Positions 19,430 through 28,989 of a stretch of DNA of 64,000 nt are shown here, one piece after another. The notes beneath the pieces were generated by a model. It was not told the DNA's origin. It saw only the letters and a program-made list of their open reading frames with translations, and made no database searches. Both the position numbers and the translations under genes were made by a program. This DNA comes from Planctomycetota bacterium (lineage in GTDB: Bacteria; Planctomycetota; UBA1135; GCA-002686595), in contig JBIKMH010000014.1 of NCBI GenBank assembly GCA_044359355.1, forward strand, positions 1 to 64,000, given 5' to 3'. Numbering within the stretch: position 1 is the first letter of the stretch; each line of letters starts with the position of its first letter.

Positions 19430-19750
19430 ATGATCTGCACCACCACCCCCACCATCGACGGCCACCGCACCACCCGCGTCATCGGCATCGTCTCCGGCGA
19501 GACAATCCTGGGCGCCAATATCTTCCGCGACTTCCTCGCCGGCATCCGCGACATCGTCGGCGGCCGCTCGGGCGCTTACGAGACCGTCCTGCGCGATGCA
19601 CGCAAGACAGCGCTCGAAGAGATGTCCCGCGAAGCGCAGAGTCTCGGCGCCAACGCGGTCGTGGCCGTCGACATCGACTACGAGACCGTTGGCAACGGCA
19701 TGCTGATGGTCACCGCTTGCGGCACAGCGGTCGTGATTCAGCCTGGATAG
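19430..19750 (+). CDS. YbjQ/UPF0145 family protein
   Basis: 106 aa with [35 protein letters not shown]... Confidence 0.8.
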
Positions 19751-19782
19751 TCTCCTGCGCCGTCTTGGCGTAGCATCAGGAC

Positions 19783-21225
19783 ATGCGATGCCTGACCGCG
19801 CTGTCTGTCCAGCTGCTCCTCATCGGCTGTCATTCGGCGCCCAAGCCGGCTCCCAATGCAGCCGTCCCCAGTTTTGATGCGCGCTTCAGCGGTTCCACGC
19901 TGCGCCTGGACTACGTGCATTGCGGAACGGCCCAACAAGAAGCGATCGCGCTGCTGGGCTATCGACTGGAAGGCGAGTGGGCCGGCAGTCGCACGCAATG
20001 GGTCGATCGCTCCGATACCGGCAAGTACCGCTTCCGCATGTTCGACAAGGCCACGGGCAGCGAGCTGTACTCGCGCGGCTTTGCCAGCATCTACGGGGAG
20101 TGGGAAACGACAGGGGCGGCCAAGCAAGGCTGGGGCAGCTTTCAAGAGTCCCAACGCTTTCCCGAACCGCGCGCCAGTGTCTTCCTTGCGCTGGAGAAAC
20201 GCGCTGCCGATGGTCGCTTTGCCGAGTTTTGGCGCACCGAACTCGACCCCCAGAGCCGTTATGTCGATCGCTCCGCACTTGCGGCGGTCGGCGAGGTCAT
20301 CACGCTGCGCGAGAACGGGCCCAGCGCCAAACAGGTGGACTTGCTGATCGTCGCCGACGGCTACACCGCCCAGCAACGCAACAAGTTCGTCGCCGACGCC
20401 AAGCGCCTGTCGAACATTCTGCTCGCCACTCAACCCTTCGCTCGCCATGCGCAGCGCTTCAGCGTGCGCTGCCTGTTCGTGCCCACTCAGGAAGGCGGGA
20501 TCTCCAACCCGCGCAAGGGCATTTGGAAGGACAGCGCCTTTGGCTTGTCTTTCAACGCCTTCGACAGCGATCGCTATGTGCTGACCTACGAGGACCAGAC
20601 GCTGCGCAATGCAGCCGCGCAAGCGCCTTACGATGCGCTGATTCTGCTCTTCAACGAGCGCAAGTACGGTGGCGGAGGGATCTACAACCTGTGGGCCACC
20701 GTCGCCAGCGACACCGAGCCGGCACCGTATGTCTTCGTGCACGAGTTCGGGCACAGCTTTGCGGGCCTGGCGGATGAATACTACAGCTCTCAAGTTGCCT
20801 ACGAAGAGTTCAATCCCGCAGGCATCGAGCCGTGGGAGCCCAACGCGACGGCGCTGCTCGATCCCGCGAAGCTGAAGTGGAAGGATCTCGTCGACCCCTC
20901 CACCCCGCTGCCGACGCCCTGGAACCAGGCGCTCTACGACAGCGTGGATCTCGAGTACCAGAAGCAGCGCGCCGAGGCGATCGCAGCCCAGGCCAGCGAG
21001 GAGCGCAACGAGGAGCTGATGCGCGAGATCAAGGCCCAGACCGCGGCGCTGCTCGCGAACGAGCCCTACCGTGGCAAGGTCGGGGCCTTCCAGGGCTCGA
21101 TGTACGAGGCCAAGGGGCTCTACCGTCCGGAGGTCGATTGCATCATGTTCTCGCGCAACCCGACGAGCTTCTGCAGGGTCTGCGAGCGCGCGCTGGAGCG
21201 CATGATTCGCATGTACACCGAATGA
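19783..21225 (+). CDS. M64-family zinc metallopeptidase (IgA peptidase-like) lipoprotein
   Basis: Lipobox LLLIGC; HEFGHSFAGLADEY zinc motif. Confidence 0.8.
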   Translation: MRCLTALSVQLLLIGCHSAPKPAPNAAVPSFDARFSGSTLRLDYVHCGTAQQEAIALLGYRLEGEWAGSRTQWVDRSDTGKYRFRMFDKATGSELYSRGFASIYGEWETTGAAKQGWGSFQESQRFPEPRASVFLALEKRAADGRFAEFWRTELDPQSRYVDRSALAAVGEVITLRENGPSAKQVDLLIVADGYTAQQRNKFVADAKRLSNILLATQPFARHAQRFSVRCLFVPTQEGGISNPRKGIWKDSAFGLSFNAFDSDRYVLTYEDQTLRNAAAQAPYDALILLFNERKYGGGGIYNLWATVASDTEPAPYVFVHEFGHSFAGLADEYYSSQVAYEEFNPAGIEPWEPNATALLDPAKLKWKDLVDPSTPLPTPWNQALYDSVDLEYQKQRAEAIAAQASEERNEELMREIKAQTAALLANEPYRGKVGAFQGSMYEAKGLYRPEVDCIMFSRNPTSFCRVCERALERMIRMYTE

Positions 21226-21237
21226 TCGGGGCTCCGA

Positions 21238-21948
21238 TCAGGCCTGCAGGTAGCGCTCGAGGAGCGCACCGAGTGCCCGGTCGTAGGTCTGATTGACCTC
21301 GTCTACGGCTCCTGCGGTGACCGCCAGATCCTTGAGCAGACCGTTGTGCAATCCGTAGACCCAACCGTGCACATTCACGACCTGGCCGCGCTGCCACGCC
21401 TCACGGACCACCGTGGTGCGACAGACATTGCGGGCCTGTTCGAGCACATTGAGTTCGACCAGTGCGTCGCACTGACGGGACTCTGGTAGGCTCTTCAGAA
21501 AGGCGGCGTGCGAGTCGCGCACGTCCTGTACATGGCGCAGCCAGTTGTCGACGAGTCCCGCGCGATGGTTGTTGAGCGCCATTCGCACTCCGCCGCAACT
21601 GGAGTGACCAACGATGATGACGTGCTTTACCTTCAAGACGTCGATCGCGAAGTGGATCACCGAAAGCGCGTTGAGGTCGGAGTGGACCACCAGGTTGGCA
21701 ACGTTGCGATGCACGAACAGTTCGCCAGGCATCAGGCCAACGAGGTCGTTGGCGGGCACCCGGCTGTCCGAACAGCCGATCCACAGATACTCCGGGGACT
21801 GCTGGGACTGCAGCTTCTTGAAGAAACCTGGTTCGCGGGTTTCCGTCGCTTCCGCCCAGACACGATTCTTCGTGAATAGCTGCTGTAGGTTGGAACTCAT
21901 TGGGGGGCTGCGGATGTTAGCACCGACGCCGCCTGTCCGCCCCCCCAT
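21238..21948 (-). CDS. Beta-class carbonic anhydrase
   Basis: CSDSRVP and HSSCGG zinc ligands. Possible starts at 21948 (1-nt overlap with the upstream stop) or at the internal ATG 21900. Confidence 0.9.
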   Translation of the reverse strand: MGGRTGGVGANIRSPPMSSNLQQLFTKNRVWAEATETREPGFFKKLQSQQSPEYLWIGCSDSRVPANDLVGLMPGELFVHRNVANLVVHSDLNALSVIHFAIDVLKVKHVIIVGHSSCGGVRMALNNHRAGLVDNWLRHVQDVRDSHAAFLKSLPESRQCDALVELNVLEQARNVCRTTVVREAWQRGQVVNVHGWVYGLHNGLLKDLAVTAGAVDEVNQTYDRALGALLERYLQA

Positions 21949-24404
21949 CAGCGCAGGTCGATCCGCGCGACCTCGCCGGTGAAGACCGGCAGCGCCAGTC
22001 GCCTGATTTCCGATTCCCCCCTGCGCAGGACCAGCATGCGCGCCGTGTCAGGGACCCGGATGATCGGCAGCGCGCCATTCTCCAGCGGGGCTCGCGTTCC
22101 AGCGGAGATGGCTCCTGGCAGCACCATCTCAAGCTCCATCACCTGGCCACTTTCATCCAACAGCATCACGTACTCGAAATCCGAGGTACTCGAGGCCAGC
22201 AACTGCAAGGTGCGCAGGCGAACGACGGGGATCGTCACCTCGGTTCCCATGCGCTCTGCATCGTAGGCGGTGCTGGTCGGCTTGATTGCATTGCGGTCGT
22301 TGACTCCGATCGACACGCCGCTGCGCGGAACACTACGCAGCACGATCCGGCCGTCGGCATCCGTCGTGCCGCGCAGGTGCATCCTGTAGACCGGTCCTCC
22401 ATCTAGCGTGCCAATCGGAGCTTCGAGCTGAACCTTGGCGCCGCTGACCGGCTGGTTCTGGCCATCGACCACGCGCACACGCAGTTCCGGAACGGTCGGA
22501 TCCTGCGGCAACCGCAGCACGAGACCGCTGGTGCCCGGCCAGGCAGCATCGCTCTCGACGCGCAACATGCTGCCGGGCTGCAGCGCGTAGATGCGGTAGG
22601 CACGGTTGGCGAGACCCCCGATGCGGAAGGCACCGTTGGCATCGGTCCAGATCGGATCGGCGGACTCGGCACTGAGTTCCTCCAGGGTGGCCGATGAGTT
22701 GCCCCAATCACTGGGGTTGCACAGGCCGATCTCCCAGCCCACGCAGGCGCGGCCCTCGGCATCGACCACCACACCCGTAATGGGAGGCAGGGGCCGCTGG
22801 AGGACGATCTGCAGATCTTCCACCCCGGCACCCGGCTCGCGCAGGCGTTCGGCAATGCCCTGCTCGATGTGAGGTTGCCAACCGCGCTTGGAGGCGCTGA
22901 GTGTCCAGCGGTCCTTGAAGTAGCTCAGGGCCATCCGAAAGGACCCATCCTTGCGGGTGGACACGAAATCCTGCCCGAAGCACACGCTCGCGCCCTCCAG
23001 AGGAAGTCCGTCGGCACCGCGCACGGTTCCCGCGATCACGCGCTCGGCCTTGCCGTCCCATGGCCGCACGACAATGCGCAAGTCCCCGGTCTGGCCAGCC
23101 GACAGATCTCCCGAGCCGTAGACGCCACCCTTCCTGGCCGTCAGTGACGTCTCGAGGAAAAACGGGACCTGCTTGAGCTCAAAGCGGCCGTCACGGCCAG
23201 ACTCGGTGGAGCGCCGCGGAAAGCGATTGCCATGACGCAGAATGTACTGGTTGGCAGCTTCGTTGGACCGGCGGAACCACCACTCCACATCTGCACCGGC
23301 CACGGGTTCGCCGTTCTCCCGGACAACCACGCCGCGCAGGTCCACCGCCGGCGCGACGAAAACCAGGTGATCCCCGCTCGATTCCTCGGGGAATTGCGCC
23401 AGGATCGTCAGGTCCGGCACGGCCAGTTCCGCCTGTCCGTCCTTGCCGGGCAGAGAGAAGACGTAGCGTCCCTCTGAATCCGTGCGCGCCTTGCTCTTGA
23501 GCGGGCCCTGCTTCCAGCCCAGCTCCAGATTGGCGAGCGGGGTGGAATCGAGCGCCAGGACGCGTCCGCGAATCTCAACGCGCGGAGCGATCTCGACCTT
23601 GGGTCCCCGCACGGCGGGAGCGGGCGGCATCGCATCGCGCCCGGGCAGACCGGTCCTCTCGAGGTCCGATGCTTCCTGCACCTGCTGAAGGGCTCCACCG
23701 GAGACCGGCTCCTCCATACCAGGGAGCTCGGGCCTACCCTGCCCATCAGCCGACCACACGGCCACGACCACCGCCGCCACAACGCCAACAGCTCCAGCCA
23801 GAATCCACTTCATCGACATGAGAATCACTCCAAGGCTTGTGCTCACCGCGAGCCCTGCGGCAGGAACGCCACGCTGGGCCAGCGGCAGGAACGCAAGGCA
23901 CCATGCCTCCCGATTGCCGTAGCGCACATCCAGTTCACCGCGCAACTGACCGAGTCCTCGCTGGATGCGAGTCCGCACGCTCGCCACAGGTGTCTGTGAG
24001 CGCTGCGCGATCTCCTCGGCCGAAAGACCTTCGTAGAAGCGCAGCAGCAGCGTCGTGCGGTAGGGCTCGGAAAGCTTGAGAACGCGCCCTGCGAGCTCCC
24101 GCTGGCGTTCCGCCAGTTCCACGAGTTCCGAGGTGCTCGGCAGGGCCTCGTCACGGGCAGCCCGGCTCTCGCGATGCCGGATGCGCTGCTCAGAGCGGCC
24201 CGACTTGCGCGCCAGGTTCTGCACGACTCGCGTCAGCCAGCCGCGCAGGTTGCCCTGCGCAGCCGGCGGGGCCTCCAGGGCCGCAAGGTAGGCAGCCTGA
24301 GCGACATCTTCCGCGCGGGAAGGGTCCCGCACGAGGCGATGCGCCAGGGTGTTCACCCAGTCGGTGTGCTCCAGGAGCTGTCGAAGATCGAGGGCGGATG
24401 CCAT
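21948..24404 (-). CDS. ECF sigma factor fused to a transmembrane helix and an extracytoplasmic domain of ~5 CarboxypepD_reg-like repeats (sigma/anti-sigma-like fusion)
   Basis: Single 818-aa frame. Sigma region 2 (RAEDVAQAAYLAAL...GWLTRVVQNLARK) and region 4 (LSEPYRTTLLLRFYEGLSAEEIAQRSQTPVASVRTRIQRG), then TM MKWILAGAVGVVAAVVVAVW, then repeats (IRGRVLALDSTPLAN...TDSEGRYVF; LRGVVVRENGEPVAGADV...SGRDGRFEL; IAGTVRGADGLPLEGASV...; ITGVVVDAEGRA...TDANGAFRI; LRVRVVDGQNQPVSGAKV...TDADGRIVL). Confidence 0.7.
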   Translation of the reverse strand: MASALDLRQLLEHTDWVNTLAHRLVRDPSRAEDVAQAAYLAALEAPPAAQGNLRGWLTRVVQNLARKSGRSEQRIRHRESRAARDEALPSTSELVELAERQRELAGRVLKLSEPYRTTLLLRFYEGLSAEEIAQRSQTPVASVRTRIQRGLGQLRGELDVRYGNREAWCLAFLPLAQRGVPAAGLAVSTSLGVILMSMKWILAGAVGVVAAVVVAVWSADGQGRPELPGMEEPVSGGALQQVQEASDLERTGLPGRDAMPPAPAVRGPKVEIAPRVEIRGRVLALDSTPLANLELGWKQGPLKSKARTDSEGRYVFSLPGKDGQAELAVPDLTILAQFPEESSGDHLVFVAPAVDLRGVVVRENGEPVAGADVEWWFRRSNEAANQYILRHGNRFPRRSTESGRDGRFELKQVPFFLETSLTARKGGVYGSGDLSAGQTGDLRIVVRPWDGKAERVIAGTVRGADGLPLEGASVCFGQDFVSTRKDGSFRMALSYFKDRWTLSASKRGWQPHIEQGIAERLREPGAGVEDLQIVLQRPLPPITGVVVDAEGRACVGWEIGLCNPSDWGNSSATLEELSAESADPIWTDANGAFRIGGLANRAYRIYALQPGSMLRVESDAAWPGTSGLVLRLPQDPTVPELRVRVVDGQNQPVSGAKVQLEAPIGTLDGGPVYRMHLRGTTDADGRIVLRSVPRSGVSIGVNDRNAIKPTSTAYDAERMGTEVTIPVVRLRTLQLLASSTSDFEYVMLLDESGQVMELEMVLPGAISAGTRAPLENGALPIIRVPDTARMLVLRRGESEIRRLALPVFTGEVARIDLR

Positions 24405-24457
24405 GGGTTCCGGGCTTGCAGTCCCGCAGAAGACAAAAGTGATTCGGGGATTCTGAC

Positions 24458-24494
24458 AAAAAAACCAGCCCGCCGGGTCACACCCGGCGGGCTG
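24458..24494 (-). terminator. Rho-independent terminator of the subtilase (pseudo)gene
   Basis: On the minus strand: CAGCCCGCCGGG-tgtga-CCCGGCGGGCTGG, a 12-bp perfect stem followed by TTTTTTT. Coordinates verified against codons of an overlapping frame. Confidence 0.65.
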
Positions 24495-24520
24495 CAGTTG
24501 GGCTCAACCCGTGTTGACGA

Positions 24521-25565
24521 TCAGAAGCCGCTCACGTTGAGACGGCCGCCGGTAACGCATATGCCCGAGAGCGATGCGGTCGGAACCGCGCTCGAGAGGA
24601 TCGCGTTCTTGATCTGCGCCGCACTTGCGCCGGGATTGCTGGCCGCATACAGGGCGCAGGCACGCGTCACGTGCGGGGTTGCCATCGAGGTGCCGCTGTA
24701 GGAGCCGTACTTGTTGCCCTGCGCGCTGGGCAGCGTTGAATTGATGTTGGAACCCGGTGCACCGATGTCGACCGTCGTTGCACCGTAGTTCGAGAAGCTC
24801 GGTCGCGCAACCGTGCTCGTGATCGAGGCGACCGCGATGACGTTGGCATTGATATCGTTGGATGGATAGTTGGCGAACGCATCATGGTTGTCGCCCACGC
24901 CGTCGGCACCGCCGTTCCCCGCTGCCGTGCAGCACAGGATGTTGGCGTTGTTGGCACGCTGGATGGCGTCCTACAGCGCCTGGGAGTAGCCGCCACCACC
25001 CCACGAGTTGTGGGTCGGATCGTAGGGGGTTGGTCCAGAAGTTCGCGAAGAGATCCTGATGGGACTACTGCGCGCCTTCGTCGACAACGCCGACGAAGAC
25101 GGATGACGAACCCGTGTGATTCACGGCCCAGGCCTCGCCGGCCTTGCGTCCGTACTGTTTGGCGTGCGTCGTGGCATCGCCGTACATACCCCACAGGTTG
25201 CCCTGAGTGTAGTCGTTGTCGTTGGATACGGCTCCGTGCGTATGGATCCAGTTCGGCTCCGCAAAGCGCACCGACCCGTGACGCTGCGCCATGGCGACCC
25301 CGCGCGTGACGGTCATGCCAGGGGGCAGCTTCAGCAATTCGACGACGCCATGGCCCGGACGTTCCATCTCGGGGGGCGTGATGTCCTCGATCAGATTGGC
25401 CCAGATCAGCATGCGGGCCTGGTCGCGCATCGCCTCCGGGATACCGGGCTGGTAGGCCACCAACAGTTCGTCACGGACAAACTGACCATCCGTGGCGGTA
25501 TCAGCCGTGGCTTCCAATGGAGTCTGCGCCTGCGCGGTGCACAAGCCGAAGGTGGAAAACAGCAC
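24521..25565 (-). pseudogene. Subtilisin-like serine peptidase (S8) disrupted by two in-frame TAG stops and a frameshift
   Basis: N-terminal piece (ORF 25065-25565: signal peptide, propeptide, VGVVDEGAQ*) and C-terminal piece (ORF 24521-24898: AAGNGG...GTSMATPHV catalytic Ser motif). The intervening ~170 nt carries the HQDLFANFWTNP motif in one frame, YDPTHNSWGGGGYSQAL*DAIQRANN in another, and a C5 run at ~25015. Confidence 0.7.
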
Positions 25566-25791
25566 TGAGGACCAGGGAAGAACGAAGAAGCATCTGCGTC
25601 GTTCCTTGGAGGGAGAGGGACCCTCGAAAGTTCAAGGACGGGAAACAGTCCCGCCGCGCTCGACCCTACTCCCAGGCGACCAGCTCCAGGGGAGGGATTT
25701 CGTGTTTCCAGCCCGACACTTTCCCAAGGCCGGATCGTGATCAGTTCATGCGAGATGCAACGAACAGTCGACGGGCTCTGCCAATCTCCGT

Positions 25792-28700
25792 TCAGTTGAA
25801 TAGAAGTTCGAGATCTTTCCGGCTGAGGGTCGAGGGCGACTGCTTGTCTGCTCCCAACAGGCTCTCGGCTACCACCCGTTTGCGCGCCTGCAATTCGAGC
25901 ACGCGCTCCTCGATCGTGTCGCGCGCCACGAGGCGGTAGGCCATGACGCTGCGGGTCTGGCCGATGCGGTGCACGCGGTCGATGGCCTGCATCTCGACCG
26001 CCGGATTCCACCACGGGTCGAGCAGGAACACATAATCGGCGGCCGTCAGGTTGAGACCGAAGCCGCCGGCCTTGAGGCTGATCAGGAACAGCGTGCAGTT
26101 CGGGTCGCTCTGGAAGTGCTGGACGCGCTCGCCCCGGTTCTGCGTGGCACCATCGAGATACTCATAGTTCCAGCCGCGCGCATCGAGGTTGGCGCGCAGG
26201 ATTCCGAGGAAGGAGGTGAACTGCGAGAAGACCAGGGCCTTGTGGCCGGAGGCGGTGACCTCTTCCAGCATCGAGAGCAGCGTCTCGAGCTTGGCCGAGG
26301 AGTCCCCCACGCGCTGGGGATCGATCAGTCCCGGATGGCAGGCGGCTTGACGCAGGCGCAGCAGCGCTTCGAGCACATGCGCATCCACGCCATGCTCACC
26401 GAGTGCCCCGTTCGCCAGCGCCTGGCGGTAGTGAGCGTGCAGCTCGTCATATTCGTTGCGCTGGCGGCCTTCGAGCGCGCACAGGAGCGTCTGTTCGGTC
26501 TTGGAGGGCAGATCGATCAGCACCTGCTGCTTGGTGCGGCGCAGCAGGAAGGGCCGCAGCGCCTGCGAGAGGCGCTTGAGCGCGCTTTCGTCGCTCGGCG
26601 GCAGCGCGGAGCGCGCATCGATCGATCGCAGCGCACCGAGGGAGCCCAGCATACCCGGGTTGAGGAACTCGAAGATCGACCACAAATCGCCGAGGTGGTT
26701 TTCGACGGGCGTTCCGGTCAGGGCGATGCGCGAGCGGGCCTTGAGCAGCCGCACGGACTTGGCGGCGAGGCTGGCGGGGTTCTTGACGGCCTGCGCCTCG
26801 TCGAGCACGACGCAGTCAAAGTCGAGCTTGGACAACTCCTCGATGTCCTGGCGCACGGTGCCGTAGGTCGTGACGACAAGGTCGTGCTGCGGGATGCGCC
26901 GCAGGCGCGCGCGGCGGTCGGGGCCGGTGTATTCGAGACACAGGATACTGGGCGTGAACTGCTGAGCCTCCCGAAGCCAGTGGAAGCACAGGGAGCGCGG
27001 CGCGACCACGAGCGTGGGCTTGCCCTGCGAACCCTGCGCGCCCTGCGCCTCGCGACGCGACTCGAGGTAGGCAAGGATCTGAACCGTCTTGCCCAATCCC
27101 ATGTCATCGGCGAGACAGCCTCCGATGCCGAGCTCGTCGAGGAAGGCAAGCCACGCCAGCGTCTCGCGCTGGTAGGGTCGCAGCTCTCCGCGGAAGCCCG
27201 CGGGCACCTCGCGCGGTTTCAGCCCTTCAAAGCGCAGCACGCGGTCGCGCAGTTCCGTGAACTCGCGATCCAGCGTGACGCCCTCGCGCCCCTCCAGCAG
27301 CGCATCGAGCACCCAGGCCTGACTGCGTTCGAAGCGCAGCGAGTCCTCGTCGGCCTCGCCGAGGCGCTCGAACAACTCCCAATCCTCAAGCCATTTCTCG
27401 GGCAGGATGCCGATCGAGCCGTCGCCGAGCTTGACCGTGCGGCTTTTCTGGCGCGCGGCTTCGAGCAGCGCGGGGAAGGAAGCGGTCTGGCCCTCGAAGT
27501 CCATCCCGCCGCCGAGTTCGAAGAACTTGATCCCCGACTTGACGTGAAACTTGACCTCGCCGGGTCGCCGCCAGCGCAGGCCCTCCGCGTCGACGCCCCA
27601 GCCCTTGTCCAGCAGCACACGCACGAGATCAACCAGCTTGGCGGGGTCGACGCAGGCGTCGCGATCGGGACCGTACTCGGCGGCTTCGACGCCGTTGGCG
27701 GCCAGCAGTTCCGCGGCGCGCGCGCGCTCGATGTCAAAATCGCGGTGGATCAGCGTGGCGAGCGAGCCATCCTCGCCCGGAAGCTTCAGCAGCGCGACGT
27801 CATCGCTGGAGCGCACGCGCAGCTTCCCGTACTCGAAGAACAGGCGTGCATCGAGCTTGTCCGACCGGGCCTGCTTGCGTCCCACGAGCAGTACCGGCTT
27901 GGGCGGGGCCTGTCCCGCCCAGCGCAGGCCGGCCGCCGTGACGATCGGCGTGCCGCGGGCCTCCAGCAGCGTGCGCAGCACCTTCGACTCTTCATCCAGA
28001 GGGGCGCGCAGGGGCCCGTTGCGCCGCAATTCCTCGGCCCAGGGCATGCCCTCATGGGCGCACAGGCGCGCCACGTTAGTCTCGGTCAGAAACCAGCTGG
28101 AGCCGATGAACAACCAGGGCTCGTCGATGGACAGGCGCTCTTCGCCCCGCCGCAGCGAACCGGTCAGCACGCACTCGCCAACCTCCTCGTCGCGGCCCAG
28201 ATCGAAGCACAGTTCCCAGGGCGAGCCCGCATCATGCTTCAGCGGCGCGCTGGCCTTGCGATCCTCCGATTCGAGGTACAGCCGGCCGGTCGAGCACAAC
28301 AGCGGCAGGAGGATCTCGGCCTGCAATTCCTCCAGAGGAGCGGTCAGCACGGGCACGCGCGTGCTGCGCGCTCCCGACTTCGAGTGAATCAGCTGCAGGT
28401 TGGGCTGCAGCAGCGCGAGGATGCGCTCATCTTCCGGGTGGCGCGCGGGCGCGGCCTTCCAGAGCTCGAGCTCGAGCGGCTTGCGGCTGCCAAAGCGCCC
28501 GGTCTTGAGTCGGCGCTCCACGTGGATCCGCACCACGACGCGCACGCTGTTGAGGCTCTTGTCCGTGCCGATCAGATAGACGATGCGCTCGTGTCCGGGC
28601 GGAACGCCGTCCCAAGGGTCGCGCTGCCTTCTGGCCCGCGCGGGGGCAAGGTCGAGCAGTCGGTCCTTCCAGCTGAGCAGCGGCGCGGGCAGCGCGTCCT

Positions 28701-28989
28701 CTTCCTCGTCGATTTCCAGCTCGGTGCGCGCCAGAATCGCCGCCCACAGGTGGGCGCAGGCATTCTTGTCCGGGAATTCGGCACAGGTGCAGGCCGCCTC
28801 GGTGCGCGCCTGCCCGGCCGTCCAGCGCAGCCCCACGTCGTAGGTGCGGCCGTCGCTGACCTCGCCCAGCAGAAATCCGGGTTCCTGGCGCACCAGCTTC
28901 ACGGCCTTGGCCACGAGCAGGCGGGCGCCGCGGTCGCGCATCTCGCCGGTGAACGCGGAGGCCAGCTGGTCGGCAAGTTGGGACGACAT
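25792..28989 (-). CDS. SNF2-family helicase with N-terminal SWIM zinc finger
   Basis: SWIM CTCAEFPDKNACAHLW, SNF2_N DDMGLGKT...DEAQAVKN, helicase-C (LVFSQFTSFL...QAIDRVHRIGQ). Confidence 0.9.
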   Translation of the reverse strand: MSSQLADQLASAFTGEMRDRGARLLVAKAVKLVRQEPGFLLGEVSDGRTYDVGLRWTAGQARTEAACTCAEFPDKNACAHLWAAILARTELEIDEEEDALPAPLLSWKDRLLDLAPARARRQRDPWDGVPPGHERIVYLIGTDKSLNSVRVVVRIHVERRLKTGRFGSRKPLELELWKAAPARHPEDERILALLQPNLQLIHSKSGARSTRVPVLTAPLEELQAEILLPLLCSTGRLYLESEDRKASAPLKHDAGSPWELCFDLGRDEEVGECVLTGSLRRGEERLSIDEPWLFIGSSWFLTETNVARLCAHEGMPWAEELRRNGPLRAPLDEESKVLRTLLEARGTPIVTAAGLRWAGQAPPKPVLLVGRKQARSDKLDARLFFEYGKLRVRSSDDVALLKLPGEDGSLATLIHRDFDIERARAAELLAANGVEAAEYGPDRDACVDPAKLVDLVRVLLDKGWGVDAEGLRWRRPGEVKFHVKSGIKFFELGGGMDFEGQTASFPALLEAARQKSRTVKLGDGSIGILPEKWLEDWELFERLGEADEDSLRFERSQAWVLDALLEGREGVTLDREFTELRDRVLRFEGLKPREVPAGFRGELRPYQRETLAWLAFLDELGIGGCLADDMGLGKTVQILAYLESRREAQGAQGSQGKPTLVVAPRSLCFHWLREAQQFTPSILCLEYTGPDRRARLRRIPQHDLVVTTYGTVRQDIEELSKLDFDCVVLDEAQAVKNPASLAAKSVRLLKARSRIALTGTPVENHLGDLWSIFEFLNPGMLGSLGALRSIDARSALPPSDESALKRLSQALRPFLLRRTKQQVLIDLPSKTEQTLLCALEGRQRNEYDELHAHYRQALANGALGEHGVDAHVLEALLRLRQAACHPGLIDPQRVGDSSAKLETLLSMLEEVTASGHKALVFSQFTSFLGILRANLDARGWNYEYLDGATQNRGERVQHFQSDPNCTLFLISLKAGGFGLNLTAADYVFLLDPWWNPAVEMQAIDRVHRIGQTRSVMAYRLVARDTIEERVLELQARKRVVAESLLGADKQSPSTLSRKDLELLFN

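What the first reader, a model, noticed from the sequence alone, without database searches (positions are those of the whole stretch)
21946..24404. ECF sigma factor fused to a TM helix and five CarboxypepD_reg-like domains, overlapping the start of a beta-carbonic anhydrase
A single uninterrupted 818-aa frame contains sigma-70 regions 2 and 4, one TM helix and about 600 aa of extracytoplasmic Ig-like repeats. That is a one-polypeptide sigma/anti-sigma-like sensor. Membrane-tethered ECF sigma factors with C-terminal extensions have been catalogued in Planctomycetes and Actinobacteria but are mostly uncharacterised. This architecture, with serial CarboxypepD_reg-like repeats, I do not recognise as described. 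Its TGA stop shares one nucleotide with the ATG of the beta-carbonic anhydrase gene (TGATG), suggesting coupled expression. Upstream lies a decayed secreted subtilase, a plausible former site-1 protease partner.
Basis: partly seen in the sequence, partly recalled or inferred. Interest (0 to 1): 0.7.

Follow-up and report, generated by a model that had tools for sequence, protein, structure and literature searches.

The report
Membrane-anchored one-protein ECF sigma sensor
A real 818-residue gene joins an alternative sigma factor, through one membrane helix, to a long outward-facing stalk of beta-sandwich domains; it belongs to a very large but unstudied family of such one-protein sensors in Planctomycetota, while its proposed links to the neighbouring carbonic anhydrase and protease genes do not hold up.

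Summary
The 818-aa ORF (21948..24404, minus strand) is real. The cluster representative P0001, which differs from the window protein at two or more residues, is encoded on 11-12 separately assembled contigs. The ORF is under purifying selection (dN/dS 0.22-0.34).

Its parts are an ECF sigma domain (residues 1-160), a conserved post-sigma4 helix, one TM helix (~199-218), a disordered linker, five CarboxypepD_reg domains and a sixth beta domain. There is no anti-sigma domain.

It is not a one-off. In genome contigs, 65 of 68 complete relatives carry a TM helix right after sigma4. At least 2,418 protein clusters (50% identity) match the sigma+TM part at E<=1e-30. Most are Planctomycetota, including cultured Engelhardtia mirabilis; some are Myxococcota.

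A family promoter motif, TGAAC-N16-CGGGAC, lies about 42 nt upstream of many members. The window's copy (24420..24446) is the only hit in the window.

The TGATG overlap is an ORF-extension artefact: the carbonic anhydrase starts at 21900. Carbonic anhydrase and subtilase adjacency occur only in the two syntenic relatives.

No group in ECF classification 2.0 matches. ECF57 is closest, but its Cys-pair hallmark is absent.

The most likely mechanism is a membrane-tethered, autoregulated sigma released by intramembrane proteolysis. This is inferred, not shown.

The parts
21948..24404 (-). Complete ORF of the transmembrane ECF sigma factor (818 aa; stop codon TGA at 21948-21950)
24183..24371 (-). 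Sigma-70 region 2 (residues 12-74)
   Evidence: Pfam PF04542, 38.4 bits against cutoff 24. Aligns to SigW, SigE, SigH and AlgU structures.
23940..24095 (-). Sigma-70 region 4 (residues 104-155)
   Evidence: Pfam PF08281, 41 bits against cutoff 25.7. NCBIfam TIGR02937, 54.4 bits against cutoff 42.9.
23874..23930 (-). Conserved post-sigma4 helix (residues 159-177; family consensus LDxxxGxRxxWxxALxPL). It is not part of any known anti-sigma domain.
   Evidence: Near-invariant W168, P174 and L175. AF2 helix at 165-177 with pLDDT 71-85. No match in PDB sequences beyond residue 160.
23751..23810 (-). Single transmembrane helix (residues ~199-218), preceded by the conserved G-x3-M-x2-K motif
   Evidence: Kyte-Doolittle maximum 2.42 at residue 210. 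AF2 helix at 190-218. 65 of 68 complete family members have a hydrophobic segment at 175-250.
23589..23750 (-). Disordered Pro/Ala/Glu-rich extracytoplasmic linker (residues 219-272)
   Evidence: pLDDT below 50 for 217-272. 20% identity to the syntenic orthologue L009.
22251..23588 (-). Five tandem CarboxypepD_reg (transthyretin-like beta-sandwich) domains (residues 273-718)
   Evidence: Pfam PF13620, 5 stretches, E 3.5e-28. High-confidence beta model. Foldseek matches to tandem pilin, SdrD-B and usher Ig-like domains.
21951..22250 (-). C-terminal sixth beta-sandwich 'head' domain without a Pfam match (residues 719-818)
   Evidence: Conserved block at the C-terminus of the alignment. Beta strands at 722-816 with pLDDT 78-91. 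No Pfam hit.
24420..24446 (-). ECF-type promoter-like motif CGAATC-N14-CGGGACT, 42 nt upstream of the start codon (family consensus TGAAC-N16-CGGGAC); the putative autoregulated promoter
   Evidence: Position-weight-matrix (PWM) score 24.2, the only hit above 12 on both strands of the 64-kb window. Motif found by dyad enumeration and located. 9 of 32 exact TGAA-N16-CGGG matches in 1.8 Mb lie 36-48 nt before a family start codon, against 0.019 expected. Conserved in L007 and L009.
24456..24494 (-). Intrinsic terminator (13-bp, 11 G-C stem plus T-run) ending the subtilase pseudogene transcript and insulating the sigma gene
   Evidence: conserved in L007
24521..25583 (-). Subtilase (S8) pseudogene: prodomain and C-terminal halves, with a ~293-nt internal deletion near 25024 and in-frame stops
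   Evidence: intact 454-aa orthologue in L007 and an intact copy in L009
21238..21900 (-). Can-type beta-carbonic anhydrase, 220 aa, true start ATG 21900. It lies 47 nt downstream of the sigma gene stop with no terminator between, so it is probably co-transcribed in this lineage.
   Evidence: NF007756, 279.3 bits against cutoff 251, aligned from residue 20 of the long ORF. 220-aa calls. L009 spacer. No terminator found.

Best explanation
The gene encodes a one-component transmembrane ECF sigma factor. A complete sigma2-sigma4 module sits in the cytoplasm. About 40 residues and a single TM helix tether it directly to the inner membrane. Outside the membrane it carries a flexible linker, a rigid stalk of five transthyretin-like (CarboxypepD_reg) domains and a distal beta-sandwich head.

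Shown:
- the architecture and its topology logic;
- conservation of the fusion across a very large family;
- purifying selection on the gene;
- a conserved ECF-type promoter motif (TGAAC-N16-CGGGAC) about 42 nt upstream of family genes, including this one.

Inferred:
- The sigma factor drives its own promoter (positive autoregulation).
- The full-length protein is inactive, or locally restricted, because it is membrane-tethered.
- A signal sensed by the ectodomain leads to trimming of the ectodomain, then site-2 (RseP-type) cleavage in the Gly/Ala-rich TM helix.
- That cleavage releases the ~20-kDa sigma domain to bind RNA polymerase.
- In this lineage the downstream Can-type carbonic anhydrase is probably read through from the same promoter. 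That is local synteny, not a family trait.
For: - Architecture.
- Real frame: P0001, a near-identical cluster representative, is on 11-12 separate contigs.
- Functional constraint: dN/dS is 0.22 against L007 and 0.34 against L009. The sigma part is at 0.14-0.19 and the ectodomain at 0.30-0.37.
- Family-wide conservation of sigma+TM+ectodomain: more than 100 homologous clusters carry PF04542, PF08281 and PF13620. 65 of 68 complete genomic ORFs have a TM at 175-250, with median length 872 aa. 2,418 representative clusters match at E<=1e-30, with alignments running through the TM.
- Modular ectodomains fit a stalk plus distal sensor. Repeat stretches range from none detected to 11. Distal heads can be PDZ (Myxococcota members) or DsbA-like.
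- No anti-sigma gene or any other conserved neighbour: census of 124 neighbour proteins.
- Promoter motif.
- Precedents for proteolytic release of membrane-tethered ECFs: IutY through Prc and RseP, and the SCO4117/ECF52 model (PMC8999054; PMC5826349). The ECF57 description proposes 'release from the membrane' (bioRxiv 10.1101/2019.12.11.873521, Supplementary Text).
Against: - No experiment or computation here shows cleavage. No site-1 or site-2 protease is linked by gene context.
- There is no recognisable anti-sigma domain, so tethering alone would have to keep the sigma inactive.
- C-terminal extensions are tolerated in active holoenzymes of other ECF groups, so a tethered but active sigma is sterically conceivable.
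- The position weight matrix (PWM) was trained on 11 family sites, so its high scores on those sites are circular. The independent support is the dyad enumeration, the positional enrichment, and the untrained window, L023, L045, L026 and L047 sites.
- Only about 40% of members show a recognisable -35-like element at that position.
- The ligand or signal is unknown.
Confidence: 0.55

Rival explanations
1. The sigma factor works while still tethered, in the manner of ToxR or CadC. The full-length membrane protein recruits RNA polymerase to membrane-proximal DNA, and the ectodomain modulates activity by conformation or oligomerisation without any proteolysis.
For: - No anti-sigma domain and no protease partner in the gene context.
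- A conserved post-sigma4 helix and juxtamembrane motif (G-x3-M-x2-K) could transmit conformational signals.
- Other ECF groups keep C-terminal extensions in the active state (ECF41 and ECF42; PMC8103513).
Against: - Only about 20 disordered residues lie between the post-sigma4 helix and the membrane. That would force the whole holoenzyme-promoter complex against the bilayer.
- Characterised membrane-tethered ECF fusions (IutY; the SCO4117 truncation data) point to release.
Confidence: 0.22
2. It is a sigma/anti-sigma hybrid in the strict sense. The segment between sigma4 and the TM helix (residues 159-198) is a minimal, novel anti-sigma element that folds back on sigma2/sigma4 and is relieved by the ectodomain signal.
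For: The segment is conserved (W168, P174, L175, G192, K199). It is modelled as a helix with fair confidence (pLDDT 71-85).
Against: - It is far shorter than a class I anti-sigma domain (about 80-90 aa in four helices, from established knowledge).
- There is no zf-HC2, RskA or FecR match and no PDB sequence match beyond residue 160.
- I could not inspect inter-domain contacts in the model.
Confidence: 0.15
3. The fusion is an artefact (frameshift or assembly error) or a decaying gene, and the real genes are a separate sigma factor and a membrane protein.
For: The neighbouring subtilase is a pseudogene, so local decay does occur.
Against: - The near-identical P0001 ORF is on 11-12 separate contigs.
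- Orthologues at 92%, 55% and 48% identity, and thousands of homologues, share the fusion.
- dN/dS is 0.22-0.34.
Confidence: 0.01

Closest known systems
ECF57 (Planctomycetes; Jogler 2012; Casas-Pastor et al. ECF classification 2.0, Supplementary Text and Table S2)
   Same: - Planctomycetal ECFs with a long membrane-spanning C-terminal extension.
- No anti-sigma gene.
- The catalogue proposes activation by release from the membrane.
- A CarboxypepD_reg protein occurs in the gene context of subgroup s3.
   Different: - ECF57 has about 2 TM helices and extensions with homeodomain-like or WD40 repeats.
- It has a completely conserved Cys pair, one in sigma2 and one in sigma4.
- It has no conserved promoter motif.
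- Here there is 1 TM helix and the CarboxypepD_reg repeats are fused.
- 52 of 80 members have no Cys in the first 160 residues.
- A conserved TGAAC-N16-CGGGAC motif is present.
ECF52 / SCO4117 of Streptomyces coelicolor, and ECF53 and ECF48 (PMC5826349)
   Same: - One polypeptide with sigma, TM, a Pro-rich linker and an extracytoplasmic binding module.
- Positive autoregulation.
- A proposed proteolytic excision of the sigma domain.
   Different: - These groups are restricted to Actinobacteria.
- They carry a zinc-finger (ZAS-type) anti-sigma domain between sigma4 and the TM helix.
- Their ectodomain is a carbohydrate-binding module, not a CarboxypepD_reg stalk.
IutY of Pseudomonas putida (ECF243 subgroups with fused FecR; PMC8999054; PMC5411451, listed)
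   Same: - A sigma factor fused to a single-pass membrane regulator.
- Experimentally shown to be released by Prc and RseP.
   Different: - IutY is a true sigma/anti-sigma fusion with a FecR-type domain.
- It is driven by a TonB-dependent transducer.
- Here no FecR domain was detected in the protein, and no conserved neighbour of any kind emerged from the neighbour census.
ECF54 (Actinobacteria) and ECF255 (Bacteroidetes)
   Same: - CarboxypepD_reg domains are part of the regulatory module.
- In ECF54 it is a separate +1 protein, with a subtilase at +2 or -1.
[quoted passage not shown]
   Different: - Different phyla and separate genes.
- Different promoter (GTATCAG-Xn-CTCC in ECF54).
- In this family the subtilase neighbour is not conserved.

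Membership tests
ECF (group 4) sigma-70 factors | Sigma2 and sigma4 domains only, with no sigma3 or sigma1 | tested here: met
   PF04542 and PF08281 score above their gathering cutoffs and no r3 or r1 hit appears. TIGR02937 scores 54.4 against 42.9. 26-30% identity to SigW, SigE, SigH and AlgU over residues 11-160.
ECF (group 4) sigma-70 factors | Cognate promoter with AAC-containing -35 and a short G/C-rich -10, often upstream of its own gene | tested here: met
   TGAAC-N16-CGGGAC lies about 42 nt upstream of family genes. The window's copy reads CGAATC at the -35 element, so it lacks the AAC triplet. Enrichment is 9 observed against 0.019 expected. Function as a promoter was not tested.
ECF57 | Completely conserved Cys pair, one in sigma2 and one in sigma4 | tested here: not met
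   The window protein has no Cys before residue 169. 52 of 80 family members have none in the first 160 residues. No alignment column in the sigma part reaches 20% Cys.
ECF57 | C-terminal extension with about 2 TM helices and WD40 or homeodomain-like domains | tested here: not met
   There is one hydrophobic segment. The extension is made of CarboxypepD_reg repeats.
ECF52 / ECF53 / ECF48 | Zinc-finger (ZAS-type) domain between sigma4 and the TM helix; Actinobacteria | tested here: not met
   No zf-HC2 hit and a single Cys in 156-199. Relatives are Planctomycetota and Myxococcota.
ECF243 IutY-type sigma/FecR hybrids | Fused FecR domain; TonB-dependent transducer in the locus | tested here: not met
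   No FecR hit in the protein. No family, FecR included, was shared by more than 5 of the 124 neighbour proteins.
ECF54-type module | Conserved neighbours: a CarboxypepD_reg protein at +1, a subtilase at +2 or -1, CHAT/TPR; promoter GTATCAG-Xn-CTCC | tested here: not met
   A subtilase is adjacent only in L007 and L009, and the promoter motif differs. Whether the sigma domains are phylogenetically related was not tested.
Any of the 157 groups of ECF classification 2.0 | Score against the group HMMs (ECF Hub) | not testable with these tools
   The HMM library is not available. Manual reading of Table S2 found no group with this taxonomy, TM count, extension and promoter. The 30 planctomycetal groups of Wiegand et al. 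2020 could not be read.
Class I anti-sigma domain proteins | An N-terminal four-helix anti-sigma domain of about 80-90 aa facing the cytoplasm | tested here: not met
   Only about 40 residues lie between sigma4 and the TM helix. There is no Pfam hit and no PDB sequence match beyond residue 160.
Can-type beta-carbonic anhydrase (downstream gene) | NCBIfam equivalog NF007756 above cutoff; Pro_CA domain | tested here: met
   279.3 bits against cutoff 251. PF00484 at E 1.9e-51.

The most novel reading that the evidence does not exclude
This protein represents a very large clade (at least 2,400 clusters at 50% identity) of sigma factors that has not been formally described. They are wired directly into the inner membrane without any anti-sigma domain. 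Each carries a periplasm-spanning stalk of a variable number of transthyretin-like repeats (none detected to 11) and an interchangeable distal head (beta-sandwich, PDZ or DsbA-like). Such a design could act as a 'molecular ruler' or tension sensor that reports envelope geometry or outer-layer integrity. That would be a dominant, paralogue-rich signalling mode in the ECF-rich, shape-shifting Saltatorellus/Engelhardtia lineage and related Planctomycetota, with a private promoter code (TGAAC-N16-CGGGAC variants) that keeps the paralogues insulated from one another.
Probability: 0.15. Interest if true: 0.75.

Novelty: new variant of a known kind. Interest (0 to 1): 0.42.

Why it matters
[quoted passage not shown] None of those is from Planctomycetota, the phylum with about 40 ECFs per genome.

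This family is large and simple: it has no partner genes. It comes with a predicted cognate promoter and occurs in a cultured organism with a complete genome (Engelhardtia mirabilis Pla133).

That makes several questions directly testable:
- How is a sigma factor lacking an anti-sigma domain kept silent at the membrane?
- What does a stalk of transthyretin-like domains sense?
- How are dozens of paralogues kept orthogonal?

Orthogonal sigma/promoter pairs also have value for synthetic biology.

For the window itself the result is more modest. It holds one ordinary member of that family, and the carbonic anhydrase and subtilase links are local accidents of synteny.

Tried and rejected
1. Sequencing error or frameshift. 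Rejected.

2. Translational coupling through TGATG. Rejected. The NF007756 alignment starts at residue 20, other assemblies call a 220-aa gene, and L009 lacks the overlap.

3. Carbonic anhydrase as a conserved target. tblastn of the carbonic anhydrase against 80 family loci found it adjacent only in L009, plus one weak opposite-strand hit in L060. L007, also syntenic, was shown by gene calls.

4. Subtilase as a conserved partner. tblastn found only L009 and a weak hit in L056. In the Pfam census of 124 neighbours, Peptidase_S8 reached no count of two or more, and no family occurred in more than 5 neighbours.

5. Paralogues inside the window. None at E<=1e-3.

6. Other targets of the promoter motif in the window. 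No other position-weight-matrix (PWM) hit above 12.

7. A sigma-70-type promoter scan over 21000-24700 found nothing.

8. Specific NCBIfam subfamilies all score far below cutoff, including the planctomycete-specific TIGR02984 and TIGR02989.

9. PDB sequence search of the ectodomain gave no hits. The Foldseek PDB search gave only generic tandem Ig/CnaB-like matches.

10. The afdb50 fold library was unavailable.

11. Wiegand 2020 and Jogler 2012 are not held in the library. Pinto, Liu and Mascher 2019 was seen only as a citation and I did not try to fetch it.

12. The search for related loci with the 34-sequence alignment failed for lack of a conserved stretch. It worked with 10 sequences.

13. 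Positive selection on the ectodomain. Not seen at domain level; the maximum omega is 0.55.


Full report
**Observation**

The window holds an uninterrupted 818-codon ORF on the minus strand, 21948..24404.
- Pfam places Sigma70_r2 at residues 12-74 and Sigma70_r4_2 at 104-154, both above gathering thresholds.
- Pfam also finds five stretches of CarboxypepD_reg (E 3.5e-28).
- In NCBIfam only the generic ECF superfamily model TIGR02937 passes its cutoff. All specific subfamilies, including the two planctomycete-specific ones, fall far below.
- A Kyte-Doolittle scan finds one strongly hydrophobic segment, with its maximum at residue 210 (helix ~199-218). Basic residues precede it and an acidic stretch follows, which fits N-in/C-out.
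- An AlphaFold2 model built on 34 homologues has mean pLDDT 81.5. It shows a helical sigma part up to residue 162, an extra helix at 165-177, a TM helix at 190-218 and a disordered segment at 217-272. The ectodomain at 276-816 is all-beta and modelled with high confidence.
- The repeat pattern in the alignment (GRVxDxxGxPxxGA...TDxxGRFxL) divides the ectodomain into five CarboxypepD_reg domains. A sixth C-terminal beta domain has no Pfam match.
- Foldseek against the PDB matches the ectodomain to tandem Ig/CnaB-like stalks of pilins, SdrD and ushers. It matches the N-terminus to SigH, SigW, AlgU and RpoE at 26-30% identity.
- PDB sequence matches stop at residue ~160.

**Is the fusion real?**

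Yes.
- The cluster representative P0001 differs from the window protein at two or more residues (compare). It is encoded on 11-12 contigs from independent JGI, ENA and Logan assemblies.
- Orthologues at 92%, 55% and 48% identity are also single ORFs of 818-820 aa.
- dN/dS is 0.22 against the 92% relative and 0.34 against the 55% relative. The sigma part is at 0.14-0.19 and the ectodomain at 0.30-0.37. The gene is constrained, but three to four times more relaxed than its neighbours, the carbonic anhydrase and the M64 peptidase (0.08-0.13).

**How common is it?**

- The word-indexed search returned 173 homologues. Nearly all are 640-1430 aa and carry sigma r2/r4 plus PF13620. Those that are named are Planctomycetota MAGs.
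- A scan of one genome per GTDB species returned 80 loci. Most are Planctomycetota. Two loci are in the cultured Engelhardtia mirabilis Pla133, and some are in Myxococcota.
- Among 83 sigma domains in those loci, 68 ORFs are complete, with median length 872 aa (range 231-1472). Of these, 65 have a hydrophobic segment centred at residues 175-250.
- An exhaustive phmmer search with residues 1-235 only (sigma + TM) found 2,418 representatives of 50%-identity clusters at E<=1e-30. The alignments run through the TM helix, and the top 150 are mostly 600-1300 aa long.
- Ectodomains are modular. Repeat stretches range from none detected to 11. Myxococcota members end in a PDZ domain, one member carries a DsbA-like domain, and some short members have no Pfam domain at all.
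- Several loci hold tandem paralogues.

**Context**

The gene sits among housekeeping genes: groES/EL, a SNF2 helicase, ligA and cdd.

The subtilase upstream is a pseudogene.
- Compared with the intact 454-aa orthologue, residues ~193-290 are deleted and stops are present.
- It is broken in every shown contig of this population, but intact in L007 and L009.
- A strong intrinsic terminator (24494..24466) follows it.

The carbonic anhydrase starts downstream of the supposed overlap.
- Its ORF can be extended to an ATG that overlaps the sigma stop (TGATG).
- However, the Can equivalog model aligns only from residue 20.
- Other assemblies call a 220-aa gene.
- The syntenic relative L009 has a 47-nt spacer and no TGATG.
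- The true start is therefore ATG 21900.
- No terminator lies between the two genes, so co-transcription is plausible.

Neither neighbour is a family trait.
- The carbonic anhydrase is adjacent only in the two syntenic relatives (L007 by gene calls; L009 by tblastn).
- A Pfam census of 124 neighbour proteins from about 60 family loci found no family shared by more than 5. Peptidase_S8 was listed only for L009 and reached no count of two or more.
- The family therefore has no conserved partner genes.

**Promoter**

- An unbiased enumeration of spaced dyads in the 150 nt upstream of the 83 family genes picked out CTGAA...CGGG (9 sequences against 0.5 in shuffles).
- The sites share a fixed 16-nt spacing and a fixed position about 42 nt before the start codon.
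- Exact TGAA-N16-CGGG occurs 32 times in 1.8 Mb of scanned positions. Nine of these lie 36-48 nt upstream of a family start codon, where 0.019 are expected.
- The window's own upstream region was not used for training. It carries CGAATC-N14-CGGGACT at exactly -42 and scores 24.2 against the position weight matrix (PWM). This is the only hit above 12 on either strand of the 64-kb window.
- The block is conserved in L007 and L009.
- It has the form of an ECF promoter and implies positive autoregulation and a very short leader. This is inferred, not shown.
- Only about 40% of members show a recognisable -35-like element at that position. Variants (TGCAAC, TGAGTC; CGGCA) suggest paralogue-specific codes.

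**Mechanism**

Shown:
- a complete ECF sigma module tethered by about 40 residues to one TM helix;
- an extracytoplasmic linker, stalk and head;
- no anti-sigma domain and no partner genes;
- a cognate promoter-like motif.

Inferred as most likely (confidence 0.55): the tethered sigma is inactive until the ectodomain is trimmed and an S2P-type protease cuts the Gly/Ala-rich TM helix, releasing sigma.
- This has been demonstrated for IutY (PMC8999054).
- It has been proposed for SCO4117/ECF52 (PMC5826349).
- It has been proposed for ECF57 (Supplementary Text of bioRxiv 10.1101/2019.12.11.873521).

Rivals:
- a tethered but active, ToxR-like mode (0.22);
- a minimal anti-sigma role for the conserved helix 165-177 (0.15);
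- an artefact (0.01).

**Comparison with the known**

I read the full Table S2 of ECF classification 2.0, covering all 157 groups. No group combines Planctomycetes, one TM helix, a CarboxypepD_reg extension and a TGAAC/CGGGA promoter.
- ECF57 is the nearest. Its defining Cys pair, its ~2 TM helices and its WD40 or homeodomain extensions are not met.
- ECF52, ECF53 and ECF48 need a zinc finger and are actinobacterial.
- IutY-type hybrids need a FecR domain.
- ECF54 and ECF255 show that CarboxypepD_reg domains take part in ECF regulation elsewhere. In ECF54 it is a +1 gene with a subtilase nearby. In ECF255 it is part of the anti-sigma factor. This makes the window's order (subtilase, then sigma fused to CarboxypepD_reg) an intriguing echo, but the family does not conserve it.

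Caveats:
- The 30 planctomycetal ECF groups defined by Wiegand et al. 2020 included Engelhardtia and Saltatorellus genomes, which are described as especially ECF-rich (bioRxiv 10.1101/817700). I could not read them.
- From memory, not checked here, Jogler 2012 also described Gemmata ECFs with a TM helix plus WD40 extension.
- The architecture may therefore already be catalogued, though I found no sign of experimental work.

**Verdict**

- It is a genuine one-polypeptide transmembrane ECF sensor of an uncharacterised type.
- It is not a sigma/anti-sigma fusion in the strict sense.
- It is not translationally coupled to the carbonic anhydrase.
- It is not tied to the subtilase.
- It is not rare.

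I rate it as a new variant of a known kind, with moderate interest. The value lies in the family: its size, its simplicity, its predicted promoter and its presence in a cultured organism. The value does not lie in this particular locus.

Noticed in passing
window 19700-25700 compared with L007: Divergence is mosaic. The subtilase pseudogene, the intergenic region and the sigma-domain half of the gene (25700-23900) are 72-93% identical at nucleotide level. The ectodomain, carbonic anhydrase and M64 peptidase (23890-19700) are 94-99% identical. Synonymous divergence is 0.64 in the sigma part against 0.09 in the ectodomain. This suggests a recombination breakpoint near 23900, at the sigma4/linker border.
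   Followed up: partly
window 24521-25583 (-): The secreted S8 subtilase with a fervidolysin-like prodomain is a pseudogene, with a ~293-nt internal deletion near 25024 plus stops. It is broken in all shown contigs of this population but intact in the 92% and 55% relatives, so the loss is recent and fixed.
   Followed up: yes
window vs L009 (syntenic relative): The sigma-sensor protein is only 55% identical between two genomes whose flanking proteins are 84-98% identical (CA 84%, M64 88%, SNF2 88%, YbjQ 98%). The extracytoplasmic linker is only 20% identical. This gene evolves much faster than its surroundings, though without omega above 1 at domain level.
   Followed up: partly
L045 (Polyangia MAG), L075 (Kofleriaceae MAG), L081 (delta-proteobacterial MAG): Myxococcota members of the same sigma+TM family end in a PDZ domain after six CarboxypepD_reg repeats. 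One member carries a DsbA-like thioredoxin domain instead. The distal 'head' is therefore exchangeable.
   Followed up: partly
L019, L022, L035, L036; also MAG Dive100_bin1.14 (L051, L058, L068, L074, L084): Family members occur as tandem or multiple paralogues per genome. There are up to five loci in one MAG, even though the scan used only a single peptide pattern.
   Followed up: no
window 19783-21225 (+) and 19430-19750 (+): A lipoprotein-like IgA-type M64 peptidase converges on the carbonic anhydrase with only a 13-nt gap and no detectable terminator. A YbjQ-family gene and groES/groEL lie beyond it.
   Followed up: no
window 25792-28989 (-): A 1065-aa SNF2-family helicase lies immediately upstream of the subtilase pseudogene. 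Its N-terminal region contains a Cys/His cluster (CTCAEFPDKNACAHLW) that looks SWIM-like by eye; this was not tested.
   Followed up: no
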